64,000 nucleotides of DNA, from assembly GCA_902790415.1 (NCBI GenBank), contig CADARU010000001.1, positions 50,071 to 114,070 on the forward strand, written 5' to 3'. This document shows positions 6,283-31,625 of this stretch, piece by piece. Origin of the DNA: an uncultured Pseudomonadota bacterium. GTDB taxonomy: Bacteria > Pseudomonadota > Alphaproteobacteria > Rs-D84. The first letter of the stretch is position 1. Each line of letters opens with the position of its first letter. The notes beneath the pieces were generated by a model. The model was not told where the DNA came from, searched no databases, and saw nothing but the letters and a program-made list of their open reading frames with translations. The position numbers and the translations under genes are program-made.

Positions 6283-7008
6283 TTAATCTGCGCGGACAAC
6301 ACGACAAAACACCACGCCATAAACTGCCGCTGCGCCCGCACGTTTTAACACGCGCGACAGTTCGGTAAATGTTGCACCCGATGTCATAACATCATCAACC
6401 AACAAAATCTTTTTACCACGAATTTTTTCTGGTTTTATTACATTAAAAACACCGCGAATATTTTCAAACCTTTGCTTGTGCGTTTTATGTCCCATATTTT
6501 CACGATATTTGCGCCGCACAGAATCAAAATCTAGGTGTGCATTGTATACGGCGGAAATTGGCCGCGCCAACAAAGTCGCCTGGTTATAACCACGATGAAA
6601 CAAACGCCGATTTGCCAATGGCACCGGCATAACAATATCTGGTGAAATATCAACATCACGCAGCGCCCAAATCATTGCACGCGACATAAATGTTGCATAC
6701 TTGATAACCCCACCATGTTTAAACGGCAACATTGCCGACCGCGACATATCATCATAGCGACACGTCGCACGAACAACATCCAATTCCCCCAGACCAGATG
6801 CACACACCGGACACATTGCACCCGGCATATTTTCATAACCATCTGGGAACGGGTAACCACATACCGCACAATGTGGTCCGTCAATCCAATCAAAACAACC
6901 CCAGCAATCACCACATAATTCACCATGAATTGAAACCGGCGCACTGCACAATGGACAAGACGCCGGAAACAAAAAATCTATTAAACGATGAAAAATTTTT
7001 CCTACCAA
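6283..7008 (-). CDS. ComF/GntX-family phosphoribosyltransferase-domain protein
   Basis: N-terminal Cys-rich zinc-finger (CPLCSAPVSIHGELCGDCW...CAVCGYPF) plus a C-terminal PRTase motif KKILLVDDVMTSGATF. Confidence 0.7.
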   Translation of the reverse strand: MVGKIFHRLIDFLFPASCPLCSAPVSIHGELCGDCWGCFDWIDGPHCAVCGYPFPDGYENMPGAMCPVCASGLGELDVVRATCRYDDMSRSAMLPFKHGGVIKYATFMSRAMIWALRDVDISPDIVMPVPLANRRLFHRGYNQATLLARPISAVYNAHLDFDSVRRKYRENMGHKTHKQRFENIRGVFNVIKPEKIRGKKILLVDDVMTSGATFTELSRVLKRAGAAAVYGVVFCRVVRAD

Positions 7009-8393
7009 CTCATACTTTTATATGTTTTGGAATCAACAGCATCCCCGAACATATTTCTTTTTTGTTTTGTTAATGTTTCGTATTGGTCATTAGAAATTAT
7101 TCGCAACAAAAATCCTTCGTCATCGCGCGCACTTAGCACCGGCACCACGCGTTGTTCGGCAACACCGGTATCACGCAAAACCTGTTCAATAATGGCCAGA
7201 CGGCGCGCCGCCAATTTACGACCAGACGATGTTTTGGTAACAGATTCCGGAATTGCAACCTGAATTGCACGTTTTGGATTATTAACAACAATTCCCGCAT
7301 ATTCAGACAACAAATTATAATTTTCACGCGACAAGGCGGAATCCGCACTGCGGAACTTTATCTTTATTTCTAATGGGCGAATCTTGTCTTCTTCGGACAA
7401 ATCACGTGACGAGGTAAACCCTTCAAACGAAGAAGATATATCACTGGCCACATCGAATCTATCGTCCATTGAATACGTAGACAAGTGTTTATTTTCTGAT
7501 AAAAACGTTTTTCTAAATGCCTTGCGTAATTCGGCCGGCGATAATTTTGTCATATCATCACGAACCGCGTGAATATCATAATTTTTTGAACGCGCCGCAG
7601 TACGTACAACAGGCGATGCATCATCATTGCGCGACACCACCATGCGCGATAATTTTACATCATCATCCGAATCGTTTGATGCGATTTTCTGTGATACGGA
7701 TTCATGTTCAAAATCTTGGACATTATCGGCGCGCGCAACATCAAGTGTTTCGATTTCTTTGACAGATTTTTTATCAGAAACACTGGCCTCGGCACGACGT
7801 TGCAATTCAATCAAACGCGCAATTTGTGCATCCAGATTTGAAACGCGATTTGTTAATTCGGCAACTTCATCTTCCGGTACAGATACAGCGGGTGCCGTAG
7901 ATGCTTTCTTGGATTTTACAATTTTTCCAATTTTGGTTTTTTTGGTCCTTGGTGCGGATACAGATGAATATGCATCAGACACCGATACGCCAGACAAACT
8001 TTCTTCTGGCAAAATATCATTAGAAGAAATTAGCGAAAATTCATCCGCACGCGGCATACGCAAAGGCGTATCGTTCTTTGCCCACAAATCAGAACTGGGT
8101 TTATTTGGAATTAAATAATCAGAATTTAATGCGATTTTTTCACCGGTATCTTTTGAAACATTTGCACTTGTTTTTGGTGCAACAGATGTACGCGAAACAA
8201 CACGACGTGTTGCCTTTTTGGCAGCCGTATTTTTTGCGACCGTTTTTGTTGCAACAGGTGCATTTTGAACCGGCACACCAAATTCACTGCGTGCAGACAC
8301 AGCCGCCGCAGACACATTAACCGCCGGCAAACGCGCCCCCGCAAACGCCGGCAAACATAGGAAAATTCCCAACCAAGAAACTTTTGTATGCAT
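7002..8393 (-). CDS. Secreted, largely low-complexity or coiled-coil protein with an OmpA/MotB-like C-terminal domain; hypothetical
   Basis: Signal peptide (MHTKVSWLGIFLCLPAFAGA), long Ser/Lys/Asp-rich region, and a C-terminal segment ...SSGRKLAARRLAIIEQVLRDTGVAEQRVVPV that matches the OmpA_C pattern (LS..RA..V...L...GV...R). Every + strand ORF inside it is short. Confidence 0.45.
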   Translation of the reverse strand: MHTKVSWLGIFLCLPAFAGARLPAVNVSAAAVSARSEFGVPVQNAPVATKTVAKNTAAKKATRRVVSRTSVAPKTSANVSKDTGEKIALNSDYLIPNKPSSDLWAKNDTPLRMPRADEFSLISSNDILPEESLSGVSVSDAYSSVSAPRTKKTKIGKIVKSKKASTAPAVSVPEDEVAELTNRVSNLDAQIARLIELQRRAEASVSDKKSVKEIETLDVARADNVQDFEHESVSQKIASNDSDDDVKLSRMVVSRNDDASPVVRTAARSKNYDIHAVRDDMTKLSPAELRKAFRKTFLSENKHLSTYSMDDRFDVASDISSSFEGFTSSRDLSEEDKIRPLEIKIKFRSADSALSRENYNLLSEYAGIVVNNPKRAIQVAIPESVTKTSSGRKLAARRLAIIEQVLRDTGVAEQRVVPVLSARDDEGFLLRIISNDQYETLTKQKRNMFGDAVDSKTYKSMSW

Positions 8394-8485: not shown

Positions 8486-9151
8486 TTAACGCAAACGATA
8501 GACCAATGGAACACCGGCACGCAACGCTTCCAACCGCGCCTTGTCCGCACCACGGTTTGCCAAATCTAATAAATATTTAGAAATTATTTGTGCGCGATAT
8601 TCAACAAAAGATGTATATAAATTACTGTTCACAACAATCGCATTTTCATGAATACCATGCGCTAATAATTCATATTTCTGACCACCATTATTATAAATTT
8701 CCCACTGGTCAGAATCACAACATGCCTGATTTACGCGAATCAAACTCTCGTGATAACGACGACGAATTGTTTCTTCGGGGACATCATGCCCCCCCAGCGC
8801 AACCCGTTGACGCACACGTGCGATATTTTGTTCAACCGATGGCAAATACACATATAAAAACATTATTTTATATCCATCGTTTCTTGCACGTGTTATAACC
8901 TTGTTATGAAAACCGCCCGCCAAAGTTGTTTCCAATGCAAAAGAATAATGCGCATCAAAAATATCATGCATATTTTGAATTAAAATACGTCCTGCCTGTA
9001 ATGAAGACACGTTTTGTTCGCGCGCAATATCATCACAATTTAAAAAATGTATTTCTGGGTTTTCACCAATCAATTCACGCGCCAGTGTTGTTTTACCACT
9101 GCCGTTCGCACCACCAATTAGATAAAAAATTTTGTCAGAATAAATATTCAT
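8486..9151 (-). CDS. Zeta-toxin-like / AAA_33 P-loop kinase
   Basis: Walker A (LIGGANGSGKTTLAREL) followed by ...HFLNCDDIARE, which resembles the zeta/PezT catalytic D-D region. The likely ATG start gives MNIYSDK; the track's upstream extension uses a TTG. It sits 38 nt downstream of the 541-aa repeat-protein gene on the same strand. Confidence 0.5.
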   Translation of the reverse strand: MNIYSDKIFYLIGGANGSGKTTLARELIGENPEIHFLNCDDIAREQNVSSLQAGRILIQNMHDIFDAHYSFALETTLAGGFHNKVITRARNDGYKIMFLYVYLPSVEQNIARVRQRVALGGHDVPEETIRRRYHESLIRVNQACCDSDQWEIYNNGGQKYELLAHGIHENAIVVNSNLYTSFVEYRAQIISKYLLDLANRGADKARLEALRAGVPLVYRLR

Positions 9152-9189
9152 GTCTGACAAAGTATAATACAAAAAATCACAAATGTCAA

Positions 9190-19883: not shown

Positions 19884-22800
19884 TTATTCCAAACTGGTCG
19901 TAAAGGAATCACCATAAGTACCGGCTTCATCCGGGCCAACATAGCAGACAATGTGGGAACCAACCTGGTCCAGCCATTCTTGTTGGGCCGCGGTCAATTC
20001 TTTATTATTCTTGGCTTTCAGTGCCTGGGTAACACCGATACCCGCAGCGACCGCACCACCCGTACCAACAATGCTAGATGCCAGCCATGTTCCAATCTTT
20101 GGTTTGTCACCATCATATCCTAATTTTTCTCTCACGGTATTAATGTGATTTTCAACATTAAAATTGCTGTCTACGGCGTTACACCCCTTGGCATTGCTGC
20201 AATGCACCGGTTTTTTCAATACAAACCCGTCAACAATGCCATCCGAAGTCAAAGTATAGCAGTCTTCATATTTATTATCTTCACCAGTTACTGCTTTCTT
20301 CGGTTCGCGTCCGCACAAGACATTACCAGCGTCTTTGAATCCCTCCCAATAATTAAGATTGGTTTCCAATTTTTTAACATCGCTGGATTTTGATACACCC
20401 GCTGTCGTATTCATCAAACCGCCCAAACCGGTTTTACGTTGCAACAGTTCGGTCAAACCATATCCGGCACCCGCCGCACCAATTGTTGATGCCGCAACCG
20501 CCCATTTTTGACCCGCGGTCAACTTGCCGTCTTCAGACAAACCTGTTTTCTTTGCGGCAACCGTTTTGCTAATTTTTTCTAATTCAGTTTGTGGTATCCA
20601 TGAACCGCATGTAATTGGATCACCAACCGCAAAATATGCCGTTGACCAATCTGTTCCATCGCGTAATTCTTTCTGGATATCCGGATCATCAGATTGAACC
20701 ATAACACGCACACGACAGAACGAACCATACAAATCGTTACTGGTTACAAATGCATTCGGTGTCAAACCATTGGTTGCATAGCTGTTCGGGACCTTGTTTG
20801 ATTTTAATTTCACCCATTGATATGTCGAACCCGTCATATCGTTACGTCCCATAATACCACCGTTGTTTTGTGCCAAGCACATTTGTTGTTCTTTGGTGAT
20901 TTTGGCATTATACTTTGCCTGGGCTTCTTTTTCGGCATCGGCCAAAACCTTTTGAAACAAGTTATCGGCCTGCATCTTGACCAGGTATTCTTGTTCTGGC
21001 ATGGTTACTTCAACCGAGAATAAGCACCCAAAATCGTTCATTGTATCACAAGGACCTGTTGCACCAATATCGGCAAACGACTTACACGTTGGTGTAGCAG
21101 ATGATTTATCAATACCACACTCACCTGTTGCAACGGTTTCAGCCTTGTATCCACCGCTGACCGCATCTGCCCATGTGCTGTGCGCCGCATCTGCACCACC
21201 CCATGTAACGGAATATTCATCACCTTTTGCAGCCTGTGATTTTGCAACCTCTACCCCAAAGTATTCTTCGCAGGCCTTGGCATTTACAACCGTTTCCGTA
21301 CACAAACCGGTTACAATAGTGAAATCCAAGACACCACCAACCTTGTTCATACTGTTGTTAAACGCGTTACTGGTATCGTCCGTACTGTATGTGGAACCCA
21401 TAACATCGGTTCTGCTGCGATAGCAATTTGTATAATCTGTTCCGCACATAGATTTAACGCAACTGGATACAGTATTGCGACATTGTTTCGCAAATTTATC
21501 CATTGCCGCATCATTATAAGATGCCGCCAATGTAGCATTTAACGAACCAACAACCGCCAACGGGTCTTTGAAACCGTCTTCGTATTGCGGGAACAAAATA
21601 CCAAATGCCGTCGAATCAGAATAACGATACGTTGAATCTTTGGATGCCGCATATTGACAATTCGCATCGGTGTTTACAACCGCTTCGCAAGCAGTTTTAA
21701 CTTCTTTGTATGCACGACCAGAATTAATACTGTTACCTTCGTTGTTACGAACCAATGCGTAACATACAGAACCAACACCGCCACCACAAGAACGCATCGC
21801 ACAAGATTTTATTGTTTCAACACACTTGTCTTTGGCCTTTTTATCAAACTTATCCGCCAACTGTTGAATTTTTGATGTCGTAACGGGATTGTTCATACGA
21901 GAATTATAGGCCTCGTTGAATATTTCACTGCGGTTATCTTCGTCTAGCAAATCCGCCGCCTTGGGCATTTGACCTTCGCCCAAGAATGTCGCATAACAAT
22001 ATTTGTTTGCACCAATTGTATCCAAACAAGCACCCTTGACATAACCTAAAACCTGGGACTTTTCAACAGTATCACCCGCCATCACACCAGAAATCAATGC
22101 AGATTTGTTAAGAGATGTCGCCGTTCCAGATGTTTGTGCATCCAATGCCTCGGCAATGTTGGCGGAAACTTTGTCAGAACCAACCATACATTTGAACGGG
22201 TTTTGTTCACACGCCGACATAAAGCATTGGTCAACAACCTTGTAACATGTGGAAACCGCGTTAACCGCCGCCAAATTCGCACCTTCGGTAATCATGATAC
22301 CAATACGACTGTCTGTGGCCGGTGTTGCCGCACGATTATCCGAACCGAATAATTCACGAACACCGTCCGCCTGGCAACGTGCCAAAGTGGATTCACAGAA
22401 AACCTTTTGCTTTTTAAATTCGGTATTATCGGTACACAATTCAAAGTCCGCGCCGCAAACACTTTCCTTCTTTAAGCATGATGTATATTTTTTAACACAA
22501 TTACTGGTATCCAAGCGGTTGCTAATCTCACTGGCCGCGATGAATTGACCCAAAATACTGCCCGCGGTGGGATAAATATATTCGCCATTGTTATCTTTGT
22601 TCGCCAAAGCGGTGATATTTGAATTACCAAACAGGGTGTTTACCGCCGCAGAAGAACACTGTAACAATGTGTTATTACAAATCGGTTTCTTGGCATAAAA
22701 CAATGTGTTGTTTGTACATTCTTCAAAATCAGAACCACATGCATCAGACCCGCGGATACATTCCGTATATGCGTCAACACATTCGTTTGCCGTCATCGTA

Positions 22801-23012
22801 GATTTATTTCCCGTCGTTGCGGTCCCCGTTGATGTCGTACCAATCGATGTGATTGTCGGCAAACGACGACTGCGTGCCGCAGCCATACCATTTGTCCCAG
22901 GGACAGTATAACTGACCCTTGATTCATTTGCCGGCGCAGTACGGGCCGCCCAAGACGCGTCAACCGCGCACAAAACCGCCATAAATCCAATGCAATTAGT
23001 CAAGAATTTCAT
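19884..23012 (-). CDS. Giant (1042 aa) cysteine-rich secreted protein with a C-terminal membrane anchor; hypothetical surface protein
   Basis: Signal peptide (MKFLTNCIGFMAVLCAVDASWA). Dozens of Cys, including a duplicated module C..YT.C......CG.DFE.CT.NT.F.K..C..TL..C....V..LFG at about aa 77-130 and 172-225. Two Gly-zipper hydrophobic segments near the C-terminus (WAVAASTIGAAGAGYGLTELLQRK and WLASSIVGTGGAVAAGIGVTQALKAK), then an acidic tail of about 40 aa. RBS AAAGGGGAAACGAGAATG and a TATAAT upstream. Confidence 0.65.
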   Translation of the reverse strand: MKFLTNCIGFMAVLCAVDASWAARTAPANESRVSYTVPGTNGMAAARSRRLPTITSIGTTSTGTATTGNKSTMTANECVDAYTECIRGSDACGSDFEECTNNTLFYAKKPICNNTLLQCSSAAVNTLFGNSNITALANKDNNGEYIYPTAGSILGQFIAASEISNRLDTSNCVKKYTSCLKKESVCGADFELCTDNTEFKKQKVFCESTLARCQADGVRELFGSDNRAATPATDSRIGIMITEGANLAAVNAVSTCYKVVDQCFMSACEQNPFKCMVGSDKVSANIAEALDAQTSGTATSLNKSALISGVMAGDTVEKSQVLGYVKGACLDTIGANKYCYATFLGEGQMPKAADLLDEDNRSEIFNEAYNSRMNNPVTTSKIQQLADKFDKKAKDKCVETIKSCAMRSCGGGVGSVCYALVRNNEGNSINSGRAYKEVKTACEAVVNTDANCQYAASKDSTYRYSDSTAFGILFPQYEDGFKDPLAVVGSLNATLAASYNDAAMDKFAKQCRNTVSSCVKSMCGTDYTNCYRSRTDVMGSTYSTDDTSNAFNNSMNKVGGVLDFTIVTGLCTETVVNAKACEEYFGVEVAKSQAAKGDEYSVTWGGADAAHSTWADAVSGGYKAETVATGECGIDKSSATPTCKSFADIGATGPCDTMNDFGCLFSVEVTMPEQEYLVKMQADNLFQKVLADAEKEAQAKYNAKITKEQQMCLAQNNGGIMGRNDMTGSTYQWVKLKSNKVPNSYATNGLTPNAFVTSNDLYGSFCRVRVMVQSDDPDIQKELRDGTDWSTAYFAVGDPITCGSWIPQTELEKISKTVAAKKTGLSEDGKLTAGQKWAVAASTIGAAGAGYGLTELLQRKTGLGGLMNTTAGVSKSSDVKKLETNLNYWEGFKDAGNVLCGREPKKAVTGEDNKYEDCYTLTSDGIVDGFVLKKPVHCSNAKGCNAVDSNFNVENHINTVREKLGYDGDKPKIGTWLASSIVGTGGAVAAGIGVTQALKAKNNKELTAAQQEWLDQVGSHIVCYVGPDEAGTYGDSFTTSLE

Positions 23013-23074
23013 TCTCGTTTCCCCTTTGGTATCAATTCATTATATCATAGGGTAGAAAAAAATAAAAGTAAAAA

Positions 23075-23160
23075 GTGGAGTGTGTTAGTGGGTAGTGGTA
23101 TCCAGAATAATTTTGTAAATACGAACAGATTCCAGATATCACTACCCACTTACACTAAAC
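23075..23160. repeat. Long imperfect inverted repeat (about 26-bp arms, 26-nt spacer) that is likely the rluD terminator
   Basis: gtggagtgtgttagtgggtagtggtatccag at 23075-23106 pairs with ccagatatcactacccacttacactaaac at 23132-23160. On the minus strand the stem is followed by a T-rich run, then the -10 and RBS of the downstream gene. Confidence 0.45.
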
Positions 23161-24125: not shown

Positions 24126-24593
24126 CTATTTGTAATCGCGCCAATCTGGCCCACGCGTACACTTTGATAAATCTATCTTTAATTCACGTTCACCGGTAAC
24201 CGGGCATTTTAAAATACCGGTACTGACCGCCTGGTCTGCGTCACGCGTGGCGTTACGCCATGTAAAACTGATTTCTTGGGGGGCATGCACACACACCAAA
24301 CGCAACTTACCTTCGTCTTGTTTGTTTGGCCCAAGCCAGACGCGAACACTGTCCGCTTCACCATAACATGGGAAGGCATCCAAATAGTATAAAACCAATC
24401 CCTGTTTTACATCAGAATTCGTCCATGAAAACTTACCAGTAAATTGGCGCAACGGCAACCCAGTCAATGCCGCCCAATCGGTTGTTGTAGAAAAAATACT
24501 GACCCTCTTGATAACCGGCGGTGTTGGTGTCGGTGTATCGGCATACGCAACAAAAGGTGATACCATCAACATAAACGCCAAAATTTTCTTCAT
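24126..24593 (-). CDS. Hypothetical secreted protein (155 aa)
   Basis: Signal peptide (MKKILAFMLMVSPFVAYA), three Cys, no recognisable motif. Confidence 0.45.
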   Translation of the reverse strand: MKKILAFMLMVSPFVAYADTPTPTPPVIKRVSIFSTTTDWAALTGLPLRQFTGKFSWTNSDVKQGLVLYYLDAFPCYGEADSVRVWLGPNKQDEGKLRLVCVHAPQEISFTWRNATRDADQAVSTGILKCPVTGERELKIDLSKCTRGPDWRDYK

Positions 24594-25111
24594 CTTGTGC
24601 CCCCTGTGGTATTTTCCAATAATTCAACCGTAACCTTTTTTGCACCGGACATATCGCCCGACAAAGTATGCGAAAAACGAACCGATTGCCCCGCATCCAA
24701 CAATGTCGCAGATGGCATAAAACGTTGGCGCGAAATCGGTGCACCATTTGCATCATGTAAAACAACAATCAAATCCGGCAAACCATAAACATCTTCGGAA
24801 CGATTCGTAACCATACCATTTACAACAATTTTCGTTGTGCCATCATCCGCGGTAATCGTATCAACACGTTCAATGACCGCAACCAATGGTTTCTTGTTAG
24901 GATTATCACCGCGCGACGTAACAATAACCGCAACCGCAAAAACCGTTGCCGCCAACAATGCGCAAACCGCCGCAAAAAACATTAGCAACATACCACGACG
25001 TGATTGTGGCGCGCAATTCCACACGTTGCCGCACACCGCGCAACGAACCGGCCCAGTCGGTGCGGACGGCAAAGAATATTCTGTTTTACAAACATCACAT
25101 TTTACTTTCAT
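24590..25111 (-). CDS. Zinc-ribbon (MJ0042-type) plus DUF3426-like membrane protein
   Basis: The N-terminus has CDVC...C..CG (MKVKCDVCKTEYSLPSAPTGPVRCAVCGNVW). It has one TM helix (LLMFFAAVCALLAATVFAVAVIV) and a C-terminal beta-rich domain, an arrangement typical of zinc-ribbon/DUF3426 proteins. It overlaps the next gene by 4 nt, so both are in the pilin-like operon. Confidence 0.55.
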   Translation of the reverse strand: MKVKCDVCKTEYSLPSAPTGPVRCAVCGNVWNCAPQSRRGMLLMFFAAVCALLAATVFAVAVIVTSRGDNPNKKPLVAVIERVDTITADDGTTKIVVNGMVTNRSEDVYGLPDLIVVLHDANGAPISRQRFMPSATLLDAGQSVRFSHTLSGDMSGAKKVTVELLENTTGGTR

Positions 25112-25133: not shown

Positions 25134-26447
25134 TTATTGCAAATTCAACAAACGATATTTTTCCTGGACGGAATTTTGTATTTCGTGGATTGCGTTCATA
25201 TAATCAGACATTGTCGCGTTTTTATTTGCAACAACAGAACTGAATATACGCGTTGATGCCGAACCAGACACTGATTCACGACGTAAAACCCGACCCCCAA
25301 GGTCTGTTAATGTTGGTGAATTTATATCGTTCAAGTTCGCAATACCGTTTTTCACATCCCAAAAATAATTGGAATTTTCCGAATCTATGATTTTTTCACG
25401 AACCGTTAGGCGCGATGTCAAAGACCCCGCAAAACCAACCGTAACATACAGTGCGGTTATTCGCCCTTCGGTCATATCTAGTGTTTGATTTGCACGCAAA
25501 ATGGCAATGGAATTACTGTCGGTGGACAAACCACTTAACACCAAGTCATTAACCCACAGGTTATCTGTGGCCAGTTCCGAAAATTTACCGTATTCTGATA
25601 AATTGAATACATTTTTCGTAACGATATTTTTGGCATCACCACTAAGGGTGCCTGTTACGGTGGCAAGTCTGGTTTTATAATTTGAATCTAATATTGTTTG
25701 GTTATCAAATATTAAATCACGCGTATCTATATTGTTAACATTTAAAACTTCATCTATGCGCAGACCATTTGCATTTGCAAATGCAATGTTGGTAATATCG
25801 CGCATCCCCAGGTTTAACCCAGACAACATTGTCGCATCTGCCGCACTGTCAGACGGGACACGCCACAGATACAACGAATTATCACGATTCGCATTTGTTG
25901 TTTGAACAATACCAGAAGTCGCATCGATTCCCAAACTGGCCACATCTGTACGCCACGTACCAAACCCACCATAGGCACGCGCACCATCAACAAATCCAAT
26001 TTTGTCATCGCCCAAAGAAACTATTTCGCGCGTACGCATCGGTGTGATTTCCGAATCTGAATATACTATTACGCCTTGCAAGGCGGCCTGGTCGTTTTTA
26101 TCAACAGATTTTAAAATTCGTAACTGGTATTTATCAGACATTTCTTGGACAAAGGTTTCATCCAAGCCATAATCAGTTAAATCAGACAATTTTAACCTGA
26201 TTATATTTCGACCAATTGTTGTTAACATTTTATCTTTGTTATCGGCAATATAACCCTCTAACGCAGATTTAATCTTGTCCATTTGTCGTGTAACGCGTAT
26301 ATTTTCGGCACGCAAAATCGCACGTTGTTGATACTGATAAACAAAAGGCAACAATGTACCCGCCAATGCAATGGTTAATAAAAATTCCATCAACACTGTG
26401 CCGCGACAATTATTAGATTCAAAAAATTTTCGTTTTATTTTTTTCAT
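25134..26447 (-). CDS. Large (437 aa) protein with a TadE/prepilin-like N-terminus, paralog A
   Basis: The N-terminus MKKIKRKFFESNNCRG|TVLMEFLLTIALAGTLLPF has a positively charged leader, Gly, Glu at +5, a hydrophobic helix and Pro at about +19, as in TadE-like pseudopilins. It shares LSDL..YGL and L.L.GM(R/G)DI.N motifs with the two upstream paralogs. Confidence 0.55.
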   Translation of the reverse strand: MKKIKRKFFESNNCRGTVLMEFLLTIALAGTLLPFVYQYQQRAILRAENIRVTRQMDKIKSALEGYIADNKDKMLTTIGRNIIRLKLSDLTDYGLDETFVQEMSDKYQLRILKSVDKNDQAALQGVIVYSDSEITPMRTREIVSLGDDKIGFVDGARAYGGFGTWRTDVASLGIDATSGIVQTTNANRDNSLYLWRVPSDSAADATMLSGLNLGMRDITNIAFANANGLRIDEVLNVNNIDTRDLIFDNQTILDSNYKTRLATVTGTLSGDAKNIVTKNVFNLSEYGKFSELATDNLWVNDLVLSGLSTDSNSIAILRANQTLDMTEGRITALYVTVGFAGSLTSRLTVREKIIDSENSNYFWDVKNGIANLNDINSPTLTDLGGRVLRRESVSGSASTRIFSSVVANKNATMSDYMNAIHEIQNSVQEKYRLLNLQ

Positions 26448-27730
26448 TTTTCTACTTTGCCCGGTTGTATATCAATTATATGTAACTGAGGTGCGCTGGT
26501 TAAACCGGTGCGCCAATCGCTGTTAAACATATTTTTAAAATCTTCTTTGTGCGGCATTGATGGTATGGATGCGCGTGTTAATTTAAATTCCTTGAACGCA
26601 GGTGGCGTATAAGACGGAAATACCCACGAACCGAATCTGATTGGCGGATTGGTTGATACTAACAATTCGCCAGATACGGTCAAACCAAAATCTTGATAGA
26701 AAACAATTTCATCGGTATGAATATACGGTGTATAAACAGTCCCGGCATTTATCCCGGTAAAGGCACCTATTGTTTTTAACGAATCAGATTTTATAACCAA
26801 ATCCCGCCCAACATTTACGGATTTTCCAACTTTGACCCTATCGGCGGTTATACGACCATTTGTTGTAAAACCTGATGCATTTAATGTTCGCACCTGAATA
26901 TTTCTAAACCCACTGATATCACCCATCGCACGCAATATGTCAATGTTAACATCATCGCCACGTATTTCCGCGCCGCCAGAAAAATAAACGTTTTCAGAAT
27001 TTATTTCATTTGCATCTACAAACATTGCATTAACATTGGAAACCTTTAAAGATTTTCCAATTGCACCACCAACATTATAAATATCATTTCCACCCATGTT
27101 TAAATCGCGTTCCATCATATTTAACTTTTCTGTATCCGAAGAAGCGCGATGTAAAAATTTTTCACTGTCAACATCGGAAACATCGCGCGATATTTTATAA
27201 ACCAAACGCCCCGGTTCAAAATCCGGTGATGTAACCGCCCACGAATCGCCATACGCAACCCCATCCATACCAATAATCGCCGCATCGCCACCGATGTTTT
27301 TTGCAATCTGTGCCATGCGTTTTGTTGGCATATCAAAATCAAACATTAAATACACATCAACCACAGAACCATTTTTTATTGAATACTTGTCAATAAATCC
27401 GGCGGTTGCAGAACCAGAAAATGCCGCCAATTCTTCATCAGACAATTTGATTTGTGCCTGTTGTGGCCACAGGTCTTGATTCATACGAACAAAATTCAAC
27501 ACATCGTTTCGTAAACTAATTATATCATTTGCGATTGCCAAATTATGCATCGAATGTGTCGCATCGGTTATCATAGAATACGTAAAAGGTGCCGCAACCG
27601 CAACAATGACAAAAGCCAATAAAACCTCTACCAAACCGCCACCACGTTGGGCGCAAACAGATTCCTTGGTTGGACGAGAAAAAATTCTAAATACACCCAC
27701 TTTTTCCCTCCTTGATACAAATCGCCGCAT
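26444..27730 (-). CDS. Large (428 aa) protein with a TadE/prepilin-like N-terminus, paralog B
   Basis: ...CAQRG|GGLVEVLLAFVIVAVAAPF (Glu at +5, Pro after the helix). It shares motifs with paralogs A and C (KLSDEEL..., RDLNMGGNDIYNVGGAIG). It overlaps paralog A by 4 nt and paralog C by about 44 nt; the exact start is uncertain. Confidence 0.5.
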   Translation of the reverse strand: MRRFVSRREKVGVFRIFSRPTKESVCAQRGGGLVEVLLAFVIVAVAAPFTYSMITDATHSMHNLAIANDIISLRNDVLNFVRMNQDLWPQQAQIKLSDEELAAFSGSATAGFIDKYSIKNGSVVDVYLMFDFDMPTKRMAQIAKNIGGDAAIIGMDGVAYGDSWAVTSPDFEPGRLVYKISRDVSDVDSEKFLHRASSDTEKLNMMERDLNMGGNDIYNVGGAIGKSLKVSNVNAMFVDANEINSENVYFSGGAEIRGDDVNIDILRAMGDISGFRNIQVRTLNASGFTTNGRITADRVKVGKSVNVGRDLVIKSDSLKTIGAFTGINAGTVYTPYIHTDEIVFYQDFGLTVSGELLVSTNPPIRFGSWVFPSYTPPAFKEFKLTRASIPSMPHKEDFKNMFNSDWRTGLTSAPQLHIIDIQPGKVEK

Positions 27731-29060
27731 TTATTCTGGATTCTAGACGTTGCCAAAACACATACTGACATACAATATATTGCGCCAACGATTTTTGGTT
27801 ATATGTGTTTCCATATGATTCTATGATTGTTTTACACGTAACCGTATCAGATGAATCTTGGGTTGGGTATGCCAAAATAGAAAACGCATTATTATCAACC
27901 CCATCAATTAACACATCAGGCAGCATAGATGTCCCGGCCGGCCGCACATCTAAAATCGCCGCACCAGATGCACCACGTTGCAACCCACCAGATGTTTGGT
28001 CACGCAATGTAACATTGGACGAATATAAATACGCGGTGTCTATGCCACTGGATGTGTTATAAGATAAATCATCTTCGTCAATATAAACATCTTGACCACG
28101 CGTTAAATTTATAAAAGAACTGACATCCAAACGTTCGGTACTAAAACTAATACGACTGGTTATGACATTACCACGAACATCCCATTTTTCAGGACCATAA
28201 AATCCAGTTCGGCCTTCACTCATATTCAACGCATCAACCGATGCATCGACCGCCAACATATTTCCTGTATCACCAAATTTAGAAACCGTTTTAGCAAACA
28301 CATCATTGGTGTTTAATGTACCGCGCACCACCGACAACGATGATTTTCCAGATTCATTTTGAAATATCGTCTTGTCCGCATTTATTTGTAGAATTTTATT
28401 TCTGACGTTACGACCCGCCTCGGTTCCAAACACAGACAATTTGTCAAAAATACCGGTATCAAAATTCGCACGTCTGGCGAAAATATTTTCTGTGTTAACA
28501 AAATTAAACCCCCCCATATCTAAATCGGTCAGGAATTCCGCAACATCAGAATTACGTTCATTACGCCGAACAATATCAGAATAGTTTTCCGCCAACGGTA
28601 TACCTATTTCGATAACGTCTGAATCTGATGCCGGGTTATACGATGCATAAAAGCCAATTCGCCGCGCCAATTCTGCACGTTGCATTTTGGTTAATTCACC
28701 ACCCGCAACACGTACCAACGCGTAAACATCCGTTTCGTTTTTTATAATCACCACAGATATATCTTGGCCCAGTGGGGTTCGTGCAATAAATCCCAACGGT
28801 AACCCATACGGTTCCAACAAATCAGATAAATTATTCCCCGACACAACCGTTGTGTCATAAGGTAACGCATCAGAGTTTTCCAAGACATACAAACGTGCCG
28901 CATTTTTAACCGTTTCCAGTTGGTGTGTTGTGGCATACATTTGCGCCCCAATATCACGCGATGCCAACCGCCGGGTAAAGAAAGGCATGAAAGCAAAAAC
29001 CAATGTTAATGCCAATAACGCCTGTAATAAAAAATTTCCCCTCTCGTGATGCAAAAACAT
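27687..29060 (-). CDS. Large (457 aa) protein with a pilin-like hydrophobic N-terminus, paralog C
   Basis: MFLHHERG|NFLLQALLALTLVFAFMPFF (Gln at +5 instead of Glu). It shares LSDLLEPYGL and TDLDMGGFNFVNTENI motifs with paralogs A and B. First gene of the operon, with a divergent promoter region at 29061-29217. Confidence 0.5.
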   Translation of the reverse strand: MFLHHERGNFLLQALLALTLVFAFMPFFTRRLASRDIGAQMYATTHQLETVKNAARLYVLENSDALPYDTTVVSGNNLSDLLEPYGLPLGFIARTPLGQDISVVIIKNETDVYALVRVAGGELTKMQRAELARRIGFYASYNPASDSDVIEIGIPLAENYSDIVRRNERNSDVAEFLTDLDMGGFNFVNTENIFARRANFDTGIFDKLSVFGTEAGRNVRNKILQINADKTIFQNESGKSSLSVVRGTLNTNDVFAKTVSKFGDTGNMLAVDASVDALNMSEGRTGFYGPEKWDVRGNVITSRISFSTERLDVSSFINLTRGQDVYIDEDDLSYNTSSGIDTAYLYSSNVTLRDQTSGGLQRGASGAAILDVRPAGTSMLPDVLIDGVDNNAFSILAYPTQDSSDTVTCKTIIESYGNTYNQKSLAQYIVCQYVFWQRLESRINAAICIKEGKSGCI

Positions 29061-31152: not shown

Positions 31153-31169
31153 AACACATGGGGCGAGAG

Positions 31170-31625
31170 ATGAAAACAGAATCCGGACGTTCTTTGATTG
31201 AAATTATTGGTGTGTTGGCCATTACCGCGGTTATGACGGCGGCGACGATTGCGATGTATAACACCATTCGTAAAAATCAAACGCATACAATCGCATCGGC
31301 CGAACTGCGTGAAGTGGCAAAAAACATAAAATTATTATTTGATATGCGTGGCGATTATACCGGGGTTTCGGTGGACTGGCTGGTCAAGGCCGGCGCATTA
31401 AAAAACGACAAGGCCCCCTTGGGAGAATCTTGGAGTATAGAGCCAACATCAGATGCAAGTGGTTTTGTTATAAACCTGCGTGGGTTGTCGCACAGTAATT
31501 GCGATTTCTTGGCGGTATCGGCCCCCAGTTGGGCATCATCCATTATCGTAAACGGTCAAGAAAACGAATCTTCGCCGATTTGTTTTTCAGGTAACACGAA
31601 CAATATTACATTCATTGCACAATAG
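31170..31625 (+). CDS. Type IV pilin / pseudopilin-like protein (about 151 aa)
   Basis: MKTESG|RSLIEIIGVLAITAVMTAATIAMY is a class III signal peptide-like N-terminus with Glu at +5. A C-terminal Cys pair (NCDFLAV...SSPICF) resembles a pilin D-region. RBS GAGAG 3 nt upstream. It lies 18 nt after dnaX. Confidence 0.55.
   Translation: MKTESGRSLIEIIGVLAITAVMTAATIAMYNTIRKNQTHTIASAELREVAKNIKLLFDMRGDYTGVSVDWLVKAGALKNDKAPLGESWSIEPTSDASGFVINLRGLSHSNCDFLAVSAPSWASSIIVNGQENESSPICFSGNTNNITFIAQ

What the first reader, a model, noticed from the sequence alone, without database searches (positions are those of the whole stretch)
19884..23012. 1042-aa cysteine-rich membrane-anchored surface protein with duplicated Cys modules
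It has a signal peptide and an ectodomain with very many Cys in regular spacing. The module C..YT.C......CG.DFE.CT.NT.F.K..C..TL..C appears twice. Two Gly-zipper-like hydrophobic segments sit near the C-terminus (W-A/L-x-A/S-S-T/I-I/V-G-x-x-G-A...), and a short acidic tail ends the protein. It looks like a disulfide-cross-linked envelope protein (compare chlamydial cysteine-rich OMPs) or a eukaryote-like adhesin. It lies directly upstream of the rRNA operon with a strong RBS.
Basis: seen in the sequence. Interest (0 to 1): 0.6.

Follow-up and report, generated by a model that had tools for sequence, protein, structure and literature searches.

The report
Hypervariable disulfide-rich envelope protein of Enterousia
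This is a real 1,042-residue exported protein, the founding example of an unnamed family restricted to small-genome gut alphaproteobacteria (Candidatus Enterousia, order Rs-D84); its cysteines are almost certainly all paired in disulfides and parts of it are swapped between near-identical strains, which points to a surface protein that meets the outside world.

Summary
The ORF at 19884-23012 (-) is intact. It has a signal peptide, 44 Cys, two Gly-zipper segments and an acidic tail, as described. It matches no Pfam or NCBIfam family, PDB sequence or PDB fold. Homologues are numerous (over 890 clusters at 90% identity, found in 195 species-representative genomes). All come from uncultured Rs-D84/Enterousia gut MAGs and all are called 'hypothetical'.

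New points:
1. Residues 75-590 consist of five related six-Cys helical modules, not two.
2. The mature protein has an even number of Cys in 182 of 185 relatives. Variable parts gain or lose Cys in steps of two, which indicates disulfides rather than metal sites.
3. The Gly-zipper segments are too polar to be Sec-type membrane anchors. They probably form an antiparallel hairpin that flanks a hypervariable, disulfide-bonded loop.
4. In strains whose upstream 5 kb is 98-100% identical in DNA, blocks inside this gene fall to 42-80% identity. This is a recombination mosaic.

Best reading: a polymorphic, disulfide-stapled surface or envelope protein, either an adhesin/partner-recognition protein or a coat. 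Chlamydial, EGF and TNFR homology is not supported, and an inner-membrane anchor is unlikely. Localisation and function remain inferred.

The parts
19884..23012 (-). Whole gene: 1042-aa Cys-rich exported protein (stop codon included)
   Evidence: ORF list. A 100%-identical protein is in another assembly, and there are over 890 homologous clusters.
23044..23072 (-). Promoter-like site (TTTACT-17-TATGAT, with a TATAAT 4 nt further on)
   Evidence: Consensus scan; sequence read. This is a consensus match only.
23020..23027 (-). Ribosome-binding site AAAGGGGA, 8 nt before the ATG
   Evidence: The 16S 3' end is ...GATCACCTCCTTT.
22941..23012 (-). Residues 1-24: Sec-type signal peptide (MKFLTNCIGFMAVLCAVDASWA|A)
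   Evidence: Sequence. The N-terminal hydrophobic stretch is conserved across the family. The cleavage site is inferred.
22788..22940 (-). Residues 25-75: disordered Thr/Ser-rich linker. It carries the family-wide short motifs (A)RPS(V) and R(R/M)LPT.
   Evidence: pLDDT below 30. R50 is invariant and P52/T53 are nearly so.
22608..22787 (-). Residues 76-135: six-Cys helical module A1 (C78, C85, C92, C99, C112, C119)
   Evidence: Distant family members lack this module.
22326..22508 (-). Residues 169-229: six-Cys helical module A2 (C172, C179, C186, C193, C206, C213)
   Evidence: Present in all family members.
21978..22265 (-). Residues 250-345: module B1 (C256, C263, C268, C275 ... C329, C339). 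It has a variable insert at about 276-325.
   Evidence: The insert is swapped in allele P0004.
21639..21842 (-). Residues 391-458: module B2 (C397, C404, C409, C417 ... C442, C452)
21252..21500 (-). Residues 505-587: module B3 (C511, C518, C523, C530 ... C571, C581)
20997..21251 (-). Residues 588-672: hypervariable cassette 'var1'. It is partly disordered and includes a small four-Cys beta-rich knob (C632, C643, C655, C663).
   Evidence: Mean identity to 39 homologues is 26%. The region holds 2 or 4 Cys in 180/185 relatives. Strains with 99%-identical flanks are only 30% identical here, and the same alleles recur on different backbones.
20508..20996 (-). Residues 673-835: long helix (673-714) plus a conserved alpha/beta domain with three invariant Cys (C712, C766, C802)
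   Evidence: AF2. The Cys count is odd in 181/185 relatives. No fold match.
20439..20507 (-). Residues 836-858: Gly-zipper segment 1 (WAVAASTIGAAGAGYGLTELL)
   Evidence: dG19 +6.2. Couplings to zipper 2 have i+j of about 1830 (weak).
20097..20438 (-). Residues 859-972: hypervariable inter-zipper domain (99-311 aa in relatives; 4 Cys here)
   Evidence: 18% mean identity. The Cys count is even (0/2/4/6/8) in 180/185 relatives. The region carries CxxC-rich repeats in L085. It is swapped in allele P0005, and dN/dS is about 1.3 between near-identical alleles.
20019..20096 (-). Residues 973-998: Gly-zipper segment 2 (WLASSIVGTGGAVAAGIGVTQAL)
   Evidence: dG19 +4.0.
19887..20018 (-). Residues 999-1042: conserved acidic tail with the single invariant Cys1023 (...AAQQEWLDQVGSHIVCYVGPDEAGTYGDSFTTSLE). 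Zipper 2 plus this tail also occurs as a separate small ORF in some genomes.
   Evidence: This Cys restores even parity.
19841..19865 (-). Intrinsic terminator-like hairpin (11-bp stem, 6 G-C pairs, then a T-run) starting 18 nt after the stop codon
   Evidence: sequence.

Best explanation
The gene encodes a lineage-specific structural protein of the cell envelope of an Enterousia-like (Rs-D84) gut alphaproteobacterium.

Proposed mechanism:
1. The protein is exported by Sec.
2. It folds oxidatively into a rod or bundle of five related helical modules. Each module is stapled by three disulfides. Pairs of Cys seven residues apart on one helix bond to a matching pair on a partner helix.
3. A conserved alpha/beta domain follows.
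4. The C-terminal part is an antiparallel hairpin of two Gly-zipper helices. The hairpin holds out a hypervariable, disulfide-bonded domain.
5. The conserved tail comes back and is probably locked to the alpha/beta domain by the last disulfide.
6. The hairpin most likely sits in, or on, the outer membrane. The hypervariable parts (var1 and the inter-zipper domain) would then face outward.
7. There they act in attachment or recognition (partner cell, host mucus or surface) or as a protective coat, and are diversified by recombination under pressure from phages, host antibody or partner specificity.

Shown:
- The ORF and the family exist.
- The Cys pattern and parity hold.
- There is no known domain.
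- The predicted secondary structure is helical.
- The zippers have low hydrophobicity.
- The inter-zipper region is exported.
- The intraspecies mosaic is real.

Inferred: the actual disulfide pairing, outer-membrane or surface location, the route across the outer membrane, and the adhesin/coat function.
For: Export:
- The signal peptide is conserved family-wide.

Disulfides:
- The mature Cys count is even in 182/185 relatives, over 10 different even totals from 22 to 48.
- Variable regions carry 0/2/4/6/8 Cys. They change in steps of two, not four.
- All scaffold Cys are invariant.
- Without the tail the count is odd in 183/185.
- In the naturally split version, the big ORF has 53 Cys and the small ORF's mature part has 1.

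Helical modules:
- AF2 pLDDT is 70-85 over residues 72-600. C-x6-C pairs lie on helices, and the third pair of every module straddles a helix break.
- hhalign gives A1-A2 E=4e-25, B1-B3 E=2.7e-5, B2-B3 E=3e-5, and A1-B3 E=5.6e-6.

The zippers are not inner-membrane anchors:
- dG19 is +4.0 and +6.2 for this protein. Family medians are +4.4 and +4.7, and none is below +1. Neighbouring real TM helices score -3.6 to +1.7.
- In L085/L086 the part before zipper 2 has its own signal peptide.

Hairpin:
- Zipper1-zipper2 couplings have a nearly constant i+j.

Exposure and diversifying selection:
- Three strains are 98-100% identical in DNA over 5 kb upstream but drop to 42-80% in blocks inside the gene.
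- dS is about 0-0.05 in shared blocks and 0.3 to saturated in swapped blocks.
- The same var1 allele is found on different backbones in independent samples.
- Overall the protein evolves faster (median 46.6% identity) than RluD (72.9%) or DnaX (75%).

Transcription and context:
- The gene has its own promoter-like site and a strong terminator, so it looks like an independent unit.
- Rs-D84 genomes are under 1 Mb, lack respiratory chains and standard transporters, and are thought to depend on a partner (PMC12306168).
- Gly-zipper helices that span the outer membrane are documented for the E. coli lipoproteins YfgH and SlyB (bioRxiv 10.64898/2025.12.22.696046).
Against: - There is no direct evidence of localisation. 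No lipobox, beta-barrel or known surface-sorting signal is present, so the route across the outer membrane is unexplained.
- The organism is an anaerobe reported to lack a respiratory chain (PMC12306168). The oxidant for about 21 disulfides is therefore unknown, and no Dsb-like gene lies in this 64-kb window (the rest of the genome was not searchable).
- The AF2 model is of moderate quality (mean pLDDT 62.6). Its coordinates could not be inspected, so no Cys-Cys distance was checked.
- The coupling analysis is underpowered (Neff about 74).
- dN/dS of about 1.3 in the inter-zipper region rests on few substitutions.
- Hypervariability could in principle also arise in a periplasmic protein targeted by phage or bacteriocin proteins.
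- The query's zipper segments do not match the Pfam Gly-zipper families.
Confidence: 0.5

Rival explanations
1. Inner-membrane-anchored periplasmic protein. One or both Gly-zipper segments would span the cytoplasmic membrane, with the large Cys-rich part in the periplasm and the tail (or the inter-zipper loop) in the cytoplasm.
For: - There are two hydrophobic stretches near the C-terminus, and zipper 2 is followed by KAKNNK, which fits the positive-inside rule.
- The tail holds a single Cys, which would be compatible with a reduced cytoplasmic location.
- With one TM (zipper 2), the topology would also fit the small signal-peptide + zipper + tail proteins.
Against: - The summed Hessa dG over 19 residues is +4.0 to +6.2 here and never below +2.1 in about 185 relatives. 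Real TM helices in neighbouring genes score -3.6 to +1.7.
- The inter-zipper region has an even Cys count in 180/185 relatives. In L085 it carries extracellular-type CxxC repeats and is followed by a second signal peptide, so it is exported and zipper 1 cannot span the inner membrane.
- Total Cys parity becomes even only when the tail Cys is included (183/185 odd without it).
- Extreme strain-level mosaicism is unusual for a purely periplasmic protein.
Confidence: 0.17
2. Released or contact-delivered membrane-active protein (toxin, effector or fusogen-like). The Gly/Ala-rich segments would insert into a target membrane of a partner or prey cell, rather than anchoring the protein to the producer. 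The Cys-rich helical part would serve as a stable stalk and the variable parts as receptor-binding domains.
For: - Gly-zipper segments are typical of membrane-inserting toxins, for example a T7SS effector that damages membranes (PMC12955049).
- There is a faint profile resemblance of residues 819-1012 to the alpha-pore-forming toxins YaxA/XaxA (E=1.5-3.5).
- The lineage lacks standard transporters and is thought to live off a partner (PMC12306168).
- A VirD4-type coupling protein is encoded 14 kb away.
- Hypervariable receptor-type domains are present.
Against: - The PDB matches are statistically insignificant.
- No immunity-like gene is consistently adjacent. The neighbours are rluD and an rRNA operon or other housekeeping genes.
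- The protein is present as a single copy at a fixed chromosomal position in essentially every genome of the lineage, which is more typical of a structural component.
- A Sec signal peptide argues against T4SS or T1SS delivery.
Confidence: 0.15
3. Metal- or cluster-binding protein. The regularly spaced Cys would ligate Zn, Fe or Fe-S clusters (a storage, redox or electron-transfer role) instead of forming disulfides. This would suit an anaerobe that has no obvious oxidant for disulfide formation.
For: - The habitat is anaerobic and a respiratory chain is reported absent (PMC12306168).
- The protein has many invariant Cys.
- No Dsb-like gene lies in the window.
Against: - Modules contain six Cys and variable regions change by two, not by the four expected for tetra-Cys sites.
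- There are no CxxC/CxxCH-type or ferredoxin-like motifs in the conserved part, and no His is conserved with the Cys (only 4 His in 1042 residues).
- No Pfam metal-binding family matches.
- An i/i+7 spacing on helices suits interhelical staples.
Confidence: 0.06

Closest known systems
CHCH-type twin-Cx9C (and twin-Cx3C) helical hairpins of the mitochondrial intermembrane space (reviewed in PMC12114033)
   Same: Short helix-turn-helix units in which two Cys, spaced by a whole number of helical turns on one helix, are thought to bond to two Cys on the antiparallel helix. Here the pairs are C78/C85 with C112/C119 and C172/C179 with C206/C213, each giving a constant i+j. The third pair of the B modules is C-x9-C.
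   Different: - The spacing is C-x6-C, not C-x9-C or C-x3-C.
- Each module has six Cys, with an extra C-x6-C loop pair.
- There are five modules in tandem in a 1042-aa bacterial exported protein.
- There is no Pfam CHCH match.
- The pairing is inferred, not observed.
Helicobacter cysteine-rich proteins (Hcp) and other Sel1-like-repeat proteins (own knowledge)
   Same: Secreted bacterial alpha-helical repeat proteins in which each helix pair is cross-linked by a disulfide, and which are implicated in host interaction.
   Different: - No Sel1 (PF08238) match, even at E<=10.
- The Cys pattern differs: three disulfides per module.
- A C-terminal Gly-zipper hairpin and hypervariable cassettes are present here.
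Chlamydial cysteine-rich envelope proteins OmcA/OmcB
   Same: Cys-rich envelope proteins of a Gram-negative bacterium with a small genome. Disulfide cross-linking is thought to give mechanical stability.
   Different: - No sequence relation. The Pfam Chlam_OMP3 and Chlam_OMP6 families do not match.
- This protein is predicted helical.
- Even Cys parity points to intramolecular pairs rather than a cross-linked lattice.
- The protein is strongly polymorphic within a species.
Outer-membrane glycine-zipper lipoproteins (SlyB, YfgH, Pcp, Rickettsia 17-kDa antigen; Pfam PF05433, PF13488, PF13441; bioRxiv 10.64898/2025.12.22.696046)
   Same: Sec-exported proteins whose weakly hydrophobic Gly/Ala/Ser-rich helices escape inner-membrane retention and form a two-helix hairpin in the outer membrane.
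   Different: - There is no lipobox. 'AVLC' is non-canonical and the Cys is absent in distant relatives.
- The two zippers are separated by a 99-311-aa domain instead of a tight turn.
- The query segments do not match the Pfam models. Only 2 of 40 homologues give E of about 1e-3 to Gly-zipper_Omp.
Cassette-type hypervariable surface proteins (for example the Clostridioides difficile slpA S-layer cassette, and mosaic neisserial or streptococcal surface antigens; own knowledge)
   Same: A single-copy gene at a fixed locus with its own promoter and terminator. Its alleles are exchanged by recombination between otherwise near-identical strains, giving a mosaic of conserved scaffold and divergent blocks.
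   Different: - There is no homology.
- The protein is Cys-rich, whereas classical S-layer proteins are Cys-poor.
- The host is a diderm alphaproteobacterium.
- No silent cassettes were found in the window.

Membership tests
Chlamydial cysteine-rich outer membrane proteins (OmcA/OmcB) | Sequence match to Pfam Chlam_OMP3 (PF03503) or Chlam_OMP6 (PF03504) | tested here: not met
   No Pfam family matches at E<=10 for the query or at E<=0.01 for 40 homologues.
Chlamydial cysteine-rich outer membrane proteins (OmcA/OmcB) | Intermolecular disulfide cross-linking into an envelope lattice | not testable with these tools
   Even Cys parity in 182/185 relatives favours intramolecular pairing but does not exclude cross-links.
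EGF-like / TNFR-type cysteine-rich repeats (eukaryote-like adhesin) | Match to the EGF, TNFR_c6, furin-like or GCC2_GCC3 profiles; small beta-rich knotted fold | tested here: not met
   No Pfam hit. The Cys modules are helical in the AF2 model. One relative (L085) has C..CP.GK.CAGG repeats in its variable region, but these do not match Pfam either.
CHCH (twin Cx9C) domain | Two C-x9-C motifs on the two helices of a hairpin; Pfam CHCH match | tested here: not met
   The spacing is C-x6-C on both helices of the A modules. Only the third pair of the B modules is C-x9-C. No Pfam match.
Sel1-like repeat / Helicobacter cysteine-rich proteins | Sel1 repeat profile (PF08238), with one disulfide per alpha/alpha repeat | tested here: not met
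   No Sel1 match. Each module has six Cys.
Glycine-zipper outer-membrane lipoproteins (SlyB/Pcp/YfgH type) | Lipobox [LVI][ASTVI][GAS]C at the end of the signal peptide | tested here: not met
   The sequence is A-V-L-C15, with L at position -1. This Cys is absent in distant family members.
Glycine-zipper outer-membrane lipoproteins (SlyB/Pcp/YfgH type) | Match to PF05433, PF13488 or PF13441 (two adjacent Gly-zipper helices) | tested here: not met
   The query segments scanned alone give no such match at E<=10. Two of 40 homologues reach E of about 1e-3 to Gly-zipper_Omp. The zippers are 99-311 residues apart.
Glycine-zipper outer-membrane lipoproteins (SlyB/Pcp/YfgH type) | Weakly hydrophobic Gly/Ala-rich helices that pair as a hairpin | tested here: inconclusive
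   dG19 is +4.0 and +6.2. Couplings have constant i+j, but Neff is only about 74.
Bitopic or hairpin inner-membrane protein | At least one segment hydrophobic enough for Sec-mediated membrane integration | tested here: not met
   The minimum summed Hessa dG over 19 residues is at least +2.1 for both segments in all relatives. Known TM helices of neighbouring proteins score -3.6 to +1.7. This is an approximate, position-independent scale.
Autotransporter / beta-barrel outer membrane protein | C-terminal beta-barrel domain ending in an aromatic residue | tested here: not met
   No Pfam barrel family matches. The C-terminus is helical or short-strand in AF2 and ends ...TSLE.
ClyA/YaxA/XaxA alpha-pore-forming toxins | Significant sequence or fold similarity to the coiled-coil stalk plus hydrophobic foot | tested here: not met
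S-layer protein | Known S-layer or anchoring domains (SLH, RsaA-type RTX and similar); paracrystalline surface array | tested here: inconclusive
   No such Pfam domains are found. One of 40 homologues gives E=0.0058 to SbsC_spectrin-like. Array formation cannot be tested here.

The most novel reading that the evidence does not exclude
The protein could be the partner-contact device of an obligately partner-dependent gut bacterium. In this reading a disulfide-stapled helical stalk presents strain-specific recognition knobs (var1 and the inter-zipper domain). Its two fusion-peptide-like Gly/Ala-rich helices insert into the membrane of another cell (a bacterium, protist or host cell), not into the producer's own membrane. 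This would create the attachment or conduit through which a lineage without standard transporters obtains metabolites. As a corollary, an anaerobe without a respiratory chain must have an unrecognised way to make about 21 disulfides per molecule.
Probability: 0.08. Interest if true: 0.85.

Novelty: new variant of a known kind. Interest (0 to 1): 0.5.

Why it matters
- Rs-D84/Enterousia bacteria are widespread in human, ruminant, equine and poultry guts. They have genomes under 1 Mb, have never been cultured, and their way of life (free scavenger, epibiont or parasite) is unknown.
- This family is one of their largest proteins and is present in 195 species-representative genomes of the lineage. 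It has no detectable relatives elsewhere.
- It is the one gene in the compared 8.6 kb that is scrambled by recombination between near-clonal strains. That makes it the best current candidate for the molecule through which these cells meet phages, host immunity or a partner.
- It therefore gives concrete handles: a strain-typing locus, an antigen for cell sorting and enrichment, and a test case for oxidative protein folding in a respiratory-chain-free anaerobe.
- The six-Cys 'twin C-x6-C' helical module is also a candidate new domain definition.

Tried and rejected
Searches that found nothing:
- Pfam and NCBIfam scans of the query, 40 homologues, 8 long or split relatives, and the isolated zipper/tail segments found no meaningful family.
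- A profile search against PDB sequences gave only insignificant hits.
- Foldseek against PDB gave best E of 0.26 for the full AF2 model and 1.5 for a separate model of residues 600-840.
- A profile of the zipper-2 + tail module searched against the 5.8-billion-protein collection gave nothing at E<=0.01. The query is probably too short and of too low complexity for that database size.

Analyses that were weak or negative:
- Mutual information over the whole alignment was dominated by presence or absence of module A1, that is by phylogeny. I discarded it.
- Mean-field DCA on the C-terminal 270 columns is underpowered. I use it only as a weak hint for the zipper hairpin, and the tail-to-domain contacts were inconsistent.
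- A search for silent cassettes or paralogous fragments in the window was negative.
- A search for Dsb-type CxxC oxidoreductases in the window was negative and uninformative about the rest of the genome.

Ideas considered and rejected:
- A lipoprotein reading, because 'AVLC' is non-canonical and not conserved.
- A functional link to the rRNA operon, because a terminator and a separate promoter lie between them and the adjacency is not conserved.
- An operon with the upstream pseudopilin-like genes. The block is syntenic in 69-75 of 84 loci, but rluD, an inverted repeat and a promoter-like site intervene. I keep this only as an untested lead.
- The idea that the mosaic is an assembly chimera. 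The same var1 allele and junctions recur in independent samples, and identity grades from 0.89-0.96 into the divergent block.

Full report

The ORF runs from 23012 down to 19884 on the minus strand. It starts with ATG and encodes 1042 residues without interruption. An identical protein (P0001) is present in an independent ENA assembly.

The protein has 44 Cys, or 4.2% of residues. Credible genes elsewhere in the window have 0-2.6%.

The spacing is regular. C-x6-C-x6-C-x6-C-x12-C-x6-C occurs twice (residues 78-119 and 172-213). It is followed by three copies of C-x6-C-x4-C-x6/7-C ... C-x9-C (256-339, 397-452, 511-581).

The written motif has small spacing errors.

The N-terminus looks like a Sec signal peptide. 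Two Gly/Ala-rich hydrophobic stretches lie at 836-858 and 973-998, and the protein ends in an acidic tail.

The 16S gene of a 16S-tRNA(Ile)-23S-5S operon begins 656 nt downstream.

**2. Whose gene is it, and how widespread is the family?**

A word-indexed search found 892 clusters (90% identity level) with E<=0.001. Most are full length at 1,020-1,230 aa, and none carries a Pfam domain or any name other than 'hypothetical protein'.

An exhaustive phmmer scan of 1.84 billion cluster representatives found only 205 hits, 103 of them below 1e-30. The family is therefore deep but narrow.

In the GTDB species-representative genomes, 195 stretches encode a relative. The 80 best lie in MAGs labelled Candidatus Enterousia, or uncultured Alphaproteobacteria, Rickettsiales or proteobacterium. 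They come from rumen, hindgut and faeces of ruminants, chickens and humans. One is a closed 958,618-bp chromosome.

More distant members (20-31% identity) come from other MAGs labelled Alphaproteobacteria or Rickettsiales.

According to PMC12306168, Enterousia and the whole Rs-D84 order have genomes of about 0.7-1.0 Mb. They lack the TCA cycle, respiratory chains and standard nutrient transporters, and may depend on a partner organism.

The window itself encodes BamB-, TolC-, LpxD-, OmpH-, OmpA- and LpoB-like proteins. The cell is therefore diderm.

**3. Architecture**

AF2 with a 40-sequence alignment gave mean pLDDT 62.6, but 70-85 over residues 72-600, which are entirely helical.

The first C-x6-C pair of each module lies on one helix. 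The second pair lies in the following turn or helix end. The third pair straddles a helix break (118-120, 212-214, 335-336, 449 and 578). This holds for all five modules.

For the A modules, the outer pairs have constant i+j (78+119 = 85+112, and 172+213 = 179+206). This is what an antiparallel hairpin stapled twice would give.

Profile-profile comparison supports the repeat structure: A1-A2 E=4e-25; B1-B3 E=2.7e-5 over 67 columns; B2-B3 E=3e-5 over 63 columns; A1-B3 E=5.6e-6 over 22 columns. The A-B link rests largely on Cys columns.

So residues 75-590 are best described as five diverged copies of one six-Cys helical module. Distant relatives have one A module instead of two.

The remaining parts, in order:
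- A poorly conserved stretch, var1 (588-672), which is partly disordered and includes a small four-Cys beta-rich knob.
- A 42-residue helix and a conserved alpha/beta domain with three invariant Cys (673-835).
- Zipper 1.
- A hypervariable domain of 99-311 residues.
- Zipper 2.
- A conserved 44-residue tail with one invariant Cys.

No part matches Pfam or NCBIfam, PDB sequences or PDB folds by Foldseek.

**4. Are the cysteines disulfide-bonded?**

I aligned 185 full-length relatives locally and counted Cys.
- After the signal peptide the total is even in 182 of 185. It takes ten different even values between 22 and 48.
- The hypervariable inter-zipper domain is only 18% identical on average, yet it has 0, 2, 4, 6 or 8 Cys in 180 of 185.
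- var1 has 2 or 4 Cys in 180 of 185.

Changes in steps of two, six-Cys modules, and the near absence of His (4 in 1042 residues) all argue for disulfides rather than tetra-Cys metal sites.

The alpha/beta region has an odd count in 181/185, and the tail has exactly one Cys in 180/185. Without the tail, parity is odd in 183/185.

The most economical reading is that Cys1023 in the tail pairs with one of C712, C766 or C802. This is an inference. I could not inspect the model coordinates.

**5. Are the Gly-zipper segments membrane anchors?**

Their summed Hessa free energies over 19 residues are +6.2 and +4.0 kcal/mol. Family medians are +4.7 and +4.4, and no relative is below +2.1. The real transmembrane helices of neighbouring proteins score -3.6 to +1.7 on the same simple scale.

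A natural experiment helps. In two independent assemblies (L085, L086) the large protein stops inside an expanded, CxxC-rich inter-zipper domain. A 128-aa ORF downstream then supplies signal peptide + about 50 residues + zipper 2 + tail. The large ORF has 53 Cys and the small mature protein has one.

The region before zipper 2 is therefore exported, so zipper 1 cannot cross the cytoplasmic membrane. Parity and the split version are both most simply explained if the whole mature protein is extracytoplasmic.

A mean-field coupling analysis (Neff about 74, weak) gives zipper1-zipper2 pairs with i+j of about 1830 +/- 10. That suggests an antiparallel hairpin.

Weakly hydrophobic Gly-zipper hairpins that pass Sec and end up spanning the outer membrane are known from the E. 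coli lipoproteins SlyB and YfgH (bioRxiv 10.64898/2025.12.22.696046). This protein, however, has no canonical lipobox and does not match the Pfam Gly-zipper models.

**6. Genomic context**

A TTTACT-17-TATGAT promoter-like site, an AAAGGGGA ribosome-binding site and an 11-bp-stem terminator bracket the gene. A separate TTGACT-17-CATAGT site precedes the 16S gene. The gene looks like its own transcription unit.

Upstream lies a block that is conserved on the same strand in 69-75 of 84 loci. It contains:
- Three lineage-specific 428-457-aa proteins with prepilin-like N-termini.
- A Zn-ribbon/DUF3426 (FxLYD) protein.
- A 155-aa exported protein.
- rluD.

A 16S gene follows within 4 kb in only 6 of 58 loci that have enough downstream sequence. 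In another 26 loci the contig ends just after the gene, which is what an rRNA operon often causes in assemblies.

In such small, stable genomes synteny alone is weak evidence for a functional link.

**7. The most informative result: a strain-level mosaic**

Three relatives (P0002, P0004, P0005; 87, 82 and 74% identical in protein) come from genomes whose upstream 5 kb is 98-100% identical in DNA to the window. That stretch covers rluD, the 155-aa gene, DUF3426 and two pseudopilin-like genes.

Identity collapses only inside this gene:
- To 0.60-0.63 around var1 in L087.
- To 0.60-0.80 over B1-B3 in L089.
- To 0.42-0.57 over var1 and zipper-loop-zipper in L088.

Block by block, dS is about 0-0.05 where alleles are shared and 0.3 to saturated where they differ. 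The differences were therefore imported by recombination from old, divergent alleles.

P0002 and P0005 come from different samples and carry the same var1 allele on a query-like backbone. The query's var1 type recurs in P0004 and P0006. This recurrence argues against assembly chimeras.

Between near-identical alleles, the zipper-loop-zipper region has dN/dS of about 1.3, against 0.1-0.26 in the scaffold. This rests on few substitutions.

Across species the protein is 46.6% identical at the median, against 72.9% for RluD and 75% for DnaX.

No silent copies exist in the window.

A conserved scaffold with exchangeable cassettes is what one sees in surface proteins under frequency-dependent selection by phages, antibodies or partner specificity.

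**8. What it most likely is**

Putting this together, the protein is best explained as follows:
- It is Sec-exported.
- It is a disulfide-stapled helical scaffold protein of the envelope.
- Its var1 knob and inter-zipper domain are displayed to the exterior.
- The Gly-zipper hairpin serves as the outer-membrane association or oligomerisation element.
- The tail is locked back onto the alpha/beta domain.
- Its role is attachment or recognition, or a protective coat.

Shown:
- The ORF is intact and the family exists.
- The Cys pattern and its even parity hold across the family.
- There is no known domain.
- The predicted secondary structure is helical.
- The zippers have low hydrophobicity.
- The inter-zipper region is exported.
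- The strain-level mosaic is real.

Inferred:
- The disulfide map.
- Localisation.
- The route across the outer membrane. A type-II-like route using the adjacent pseudopilin-like genes is a lead only.
- Function.

I put about 0.5 on this overall picture. Rivals:
- An inner-membrane-anchored periplasmic protein (about 0.17).
- A released or contact-delivered membrane-inserting protein (about 0.15).
- A metal-binding protein (about 0.06).

An open problem for any disulfide model is the source of oxidising power in an anaerobe reported to lack a respiratory chain. No Dsb-like gene lies in this window, and the rest of the genome could not be searched.

**9. Comparison with known families**

By mechanism, the modules resemble CHCH twin-Cx9C hairpins and the disulfide-bridged helix pairs of Helicobacter Hcp/Sel1 proteins. 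The C-terminal part resembles Gly-zipper outer-membrane lipoproteins. The population genetics resemble cassette-type surface proteins.

By membership, the protein belongs to none of them. Every sequence-defined criterion that I could test failed (see the membership table).

The C-x6-C motif also occurs in the chain-reversal loop of gamma-retroviral Env (PMC11575397). That is an analogy only.

**10. Verdict**

This is a real, intact gene and an uncharacterised, lineage-restricted family with a clear internal logic and strong signs of being a polymorphic surface molecule. It is a new variant of a known kind (disulfide-rich variable bacterial surface proteins), built from a module not yet described. 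Interest is moderate (0.5). It would rise sharply if the protein proved to mediate contact with a partner cell.

Noticed in passing
window 25134-29060 (-): ORFs 27687-29060, 26444-27730, 25134-26447: Three lineage-specific 428-457-aa proteins with prepilin-like N-termini (for example RG|TVLMEFLLTIALAG, with E at +5) and repetitive beta-rich C-terminal parts. No Pfam family matches; the only hint is a weak XpsI N-terminal hit (E=0.019). They are conserved upstream of the Cys-rich gene in 69-74 of 84 loci. They may be pseudopilins of an unrecognised secretion or pilus system.
   Followed up: partly
window 24590-25111 (-) and 24126-24593 (-): A Zn-ribbon + TM + DUF3426/FxLYD protein (173 aa) and a 155-aa exported protein with 4 Cys, with overlapping stop and start codons. 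Both belong to the same conserved block between the pseudopilin-like genes and rluD.
   Followed up: partly
window 37134-39398 (-): A 754-aa VirD4/TraG-type type IV secretion coupling protein (Pfam T4SS-DNA_transf, E=1.7e-44). This lineage therefore probably has a T4SS, as Rickettsiales do.
   Followed up: no
window 31158-31625 (+): A 155-aa protein with a textbook type IV pilin/pseudopilin N-terminus (G|RSLIEIIGVLAITAV), lying between dnaX and an OmpA-family gene. The published survey of Rs-D84 genomes did not report type IV pili.
   Followed up: no
window 23088-23149: A 62-nt imperfect inverted repeat (16-nt arms, 14/16 complementary, about 30-nt loop) between the rluD stop codon and the promoter-like site of the Cys-rich gene. 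It could be the rluD terminator or a regulatory site.
   Followed up: no
window 22860-22940 (residues 25-52 of the protein) and 7002-8393 (-): Short motifs (A)RPS(V/I) and R(R/M)LPT are conserved across the whole family, in the disordered stretch just after the signal peptide. A 463-aa OmpA-like exported protein in the window also has ARLPA directly after its signal peptide. This may be a shared sorting or processing motif.
   Followed up: partly
L085 214-4208 and L086 107-4119: In two independent assemblies the family gene is split. A 1067/1073-aa ORF ends in C..CP.GK.CAGG repeats. A 128-aa ORF lies 404 nt downstream and carries its own signal peptide, zipper 2 and the tail. The spacer contains more Cys-rich coding remnants in other frames.
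   Followed up: partly
window 14283-19227 (-): The rRNA operon has only tRNA-Ile(GAT) in the 16S-23S spacer, with no tRNA-Ala.
   Followed up: no
window about 8500-14200: The stretch downstream of the rRNA operon has low G+C from about 10 to 14 kb (35-37%, against 41-48% for most of the window). It holds a zeta-toxin-like P-loop protein (8486-9172) and several ORFs without any family match. It may be a variable island. A zeta-toxin-like gene also lies downstream in locus L001.
   Followed up: no
L024 (CAVGNU010000002.1): A contig carrying a full-length family member and the Enterousia-type neighbourhood is deposited under the name Bacteroides fragilis. This is probably a mislabelled or contaminated bin.
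   Followed up: no
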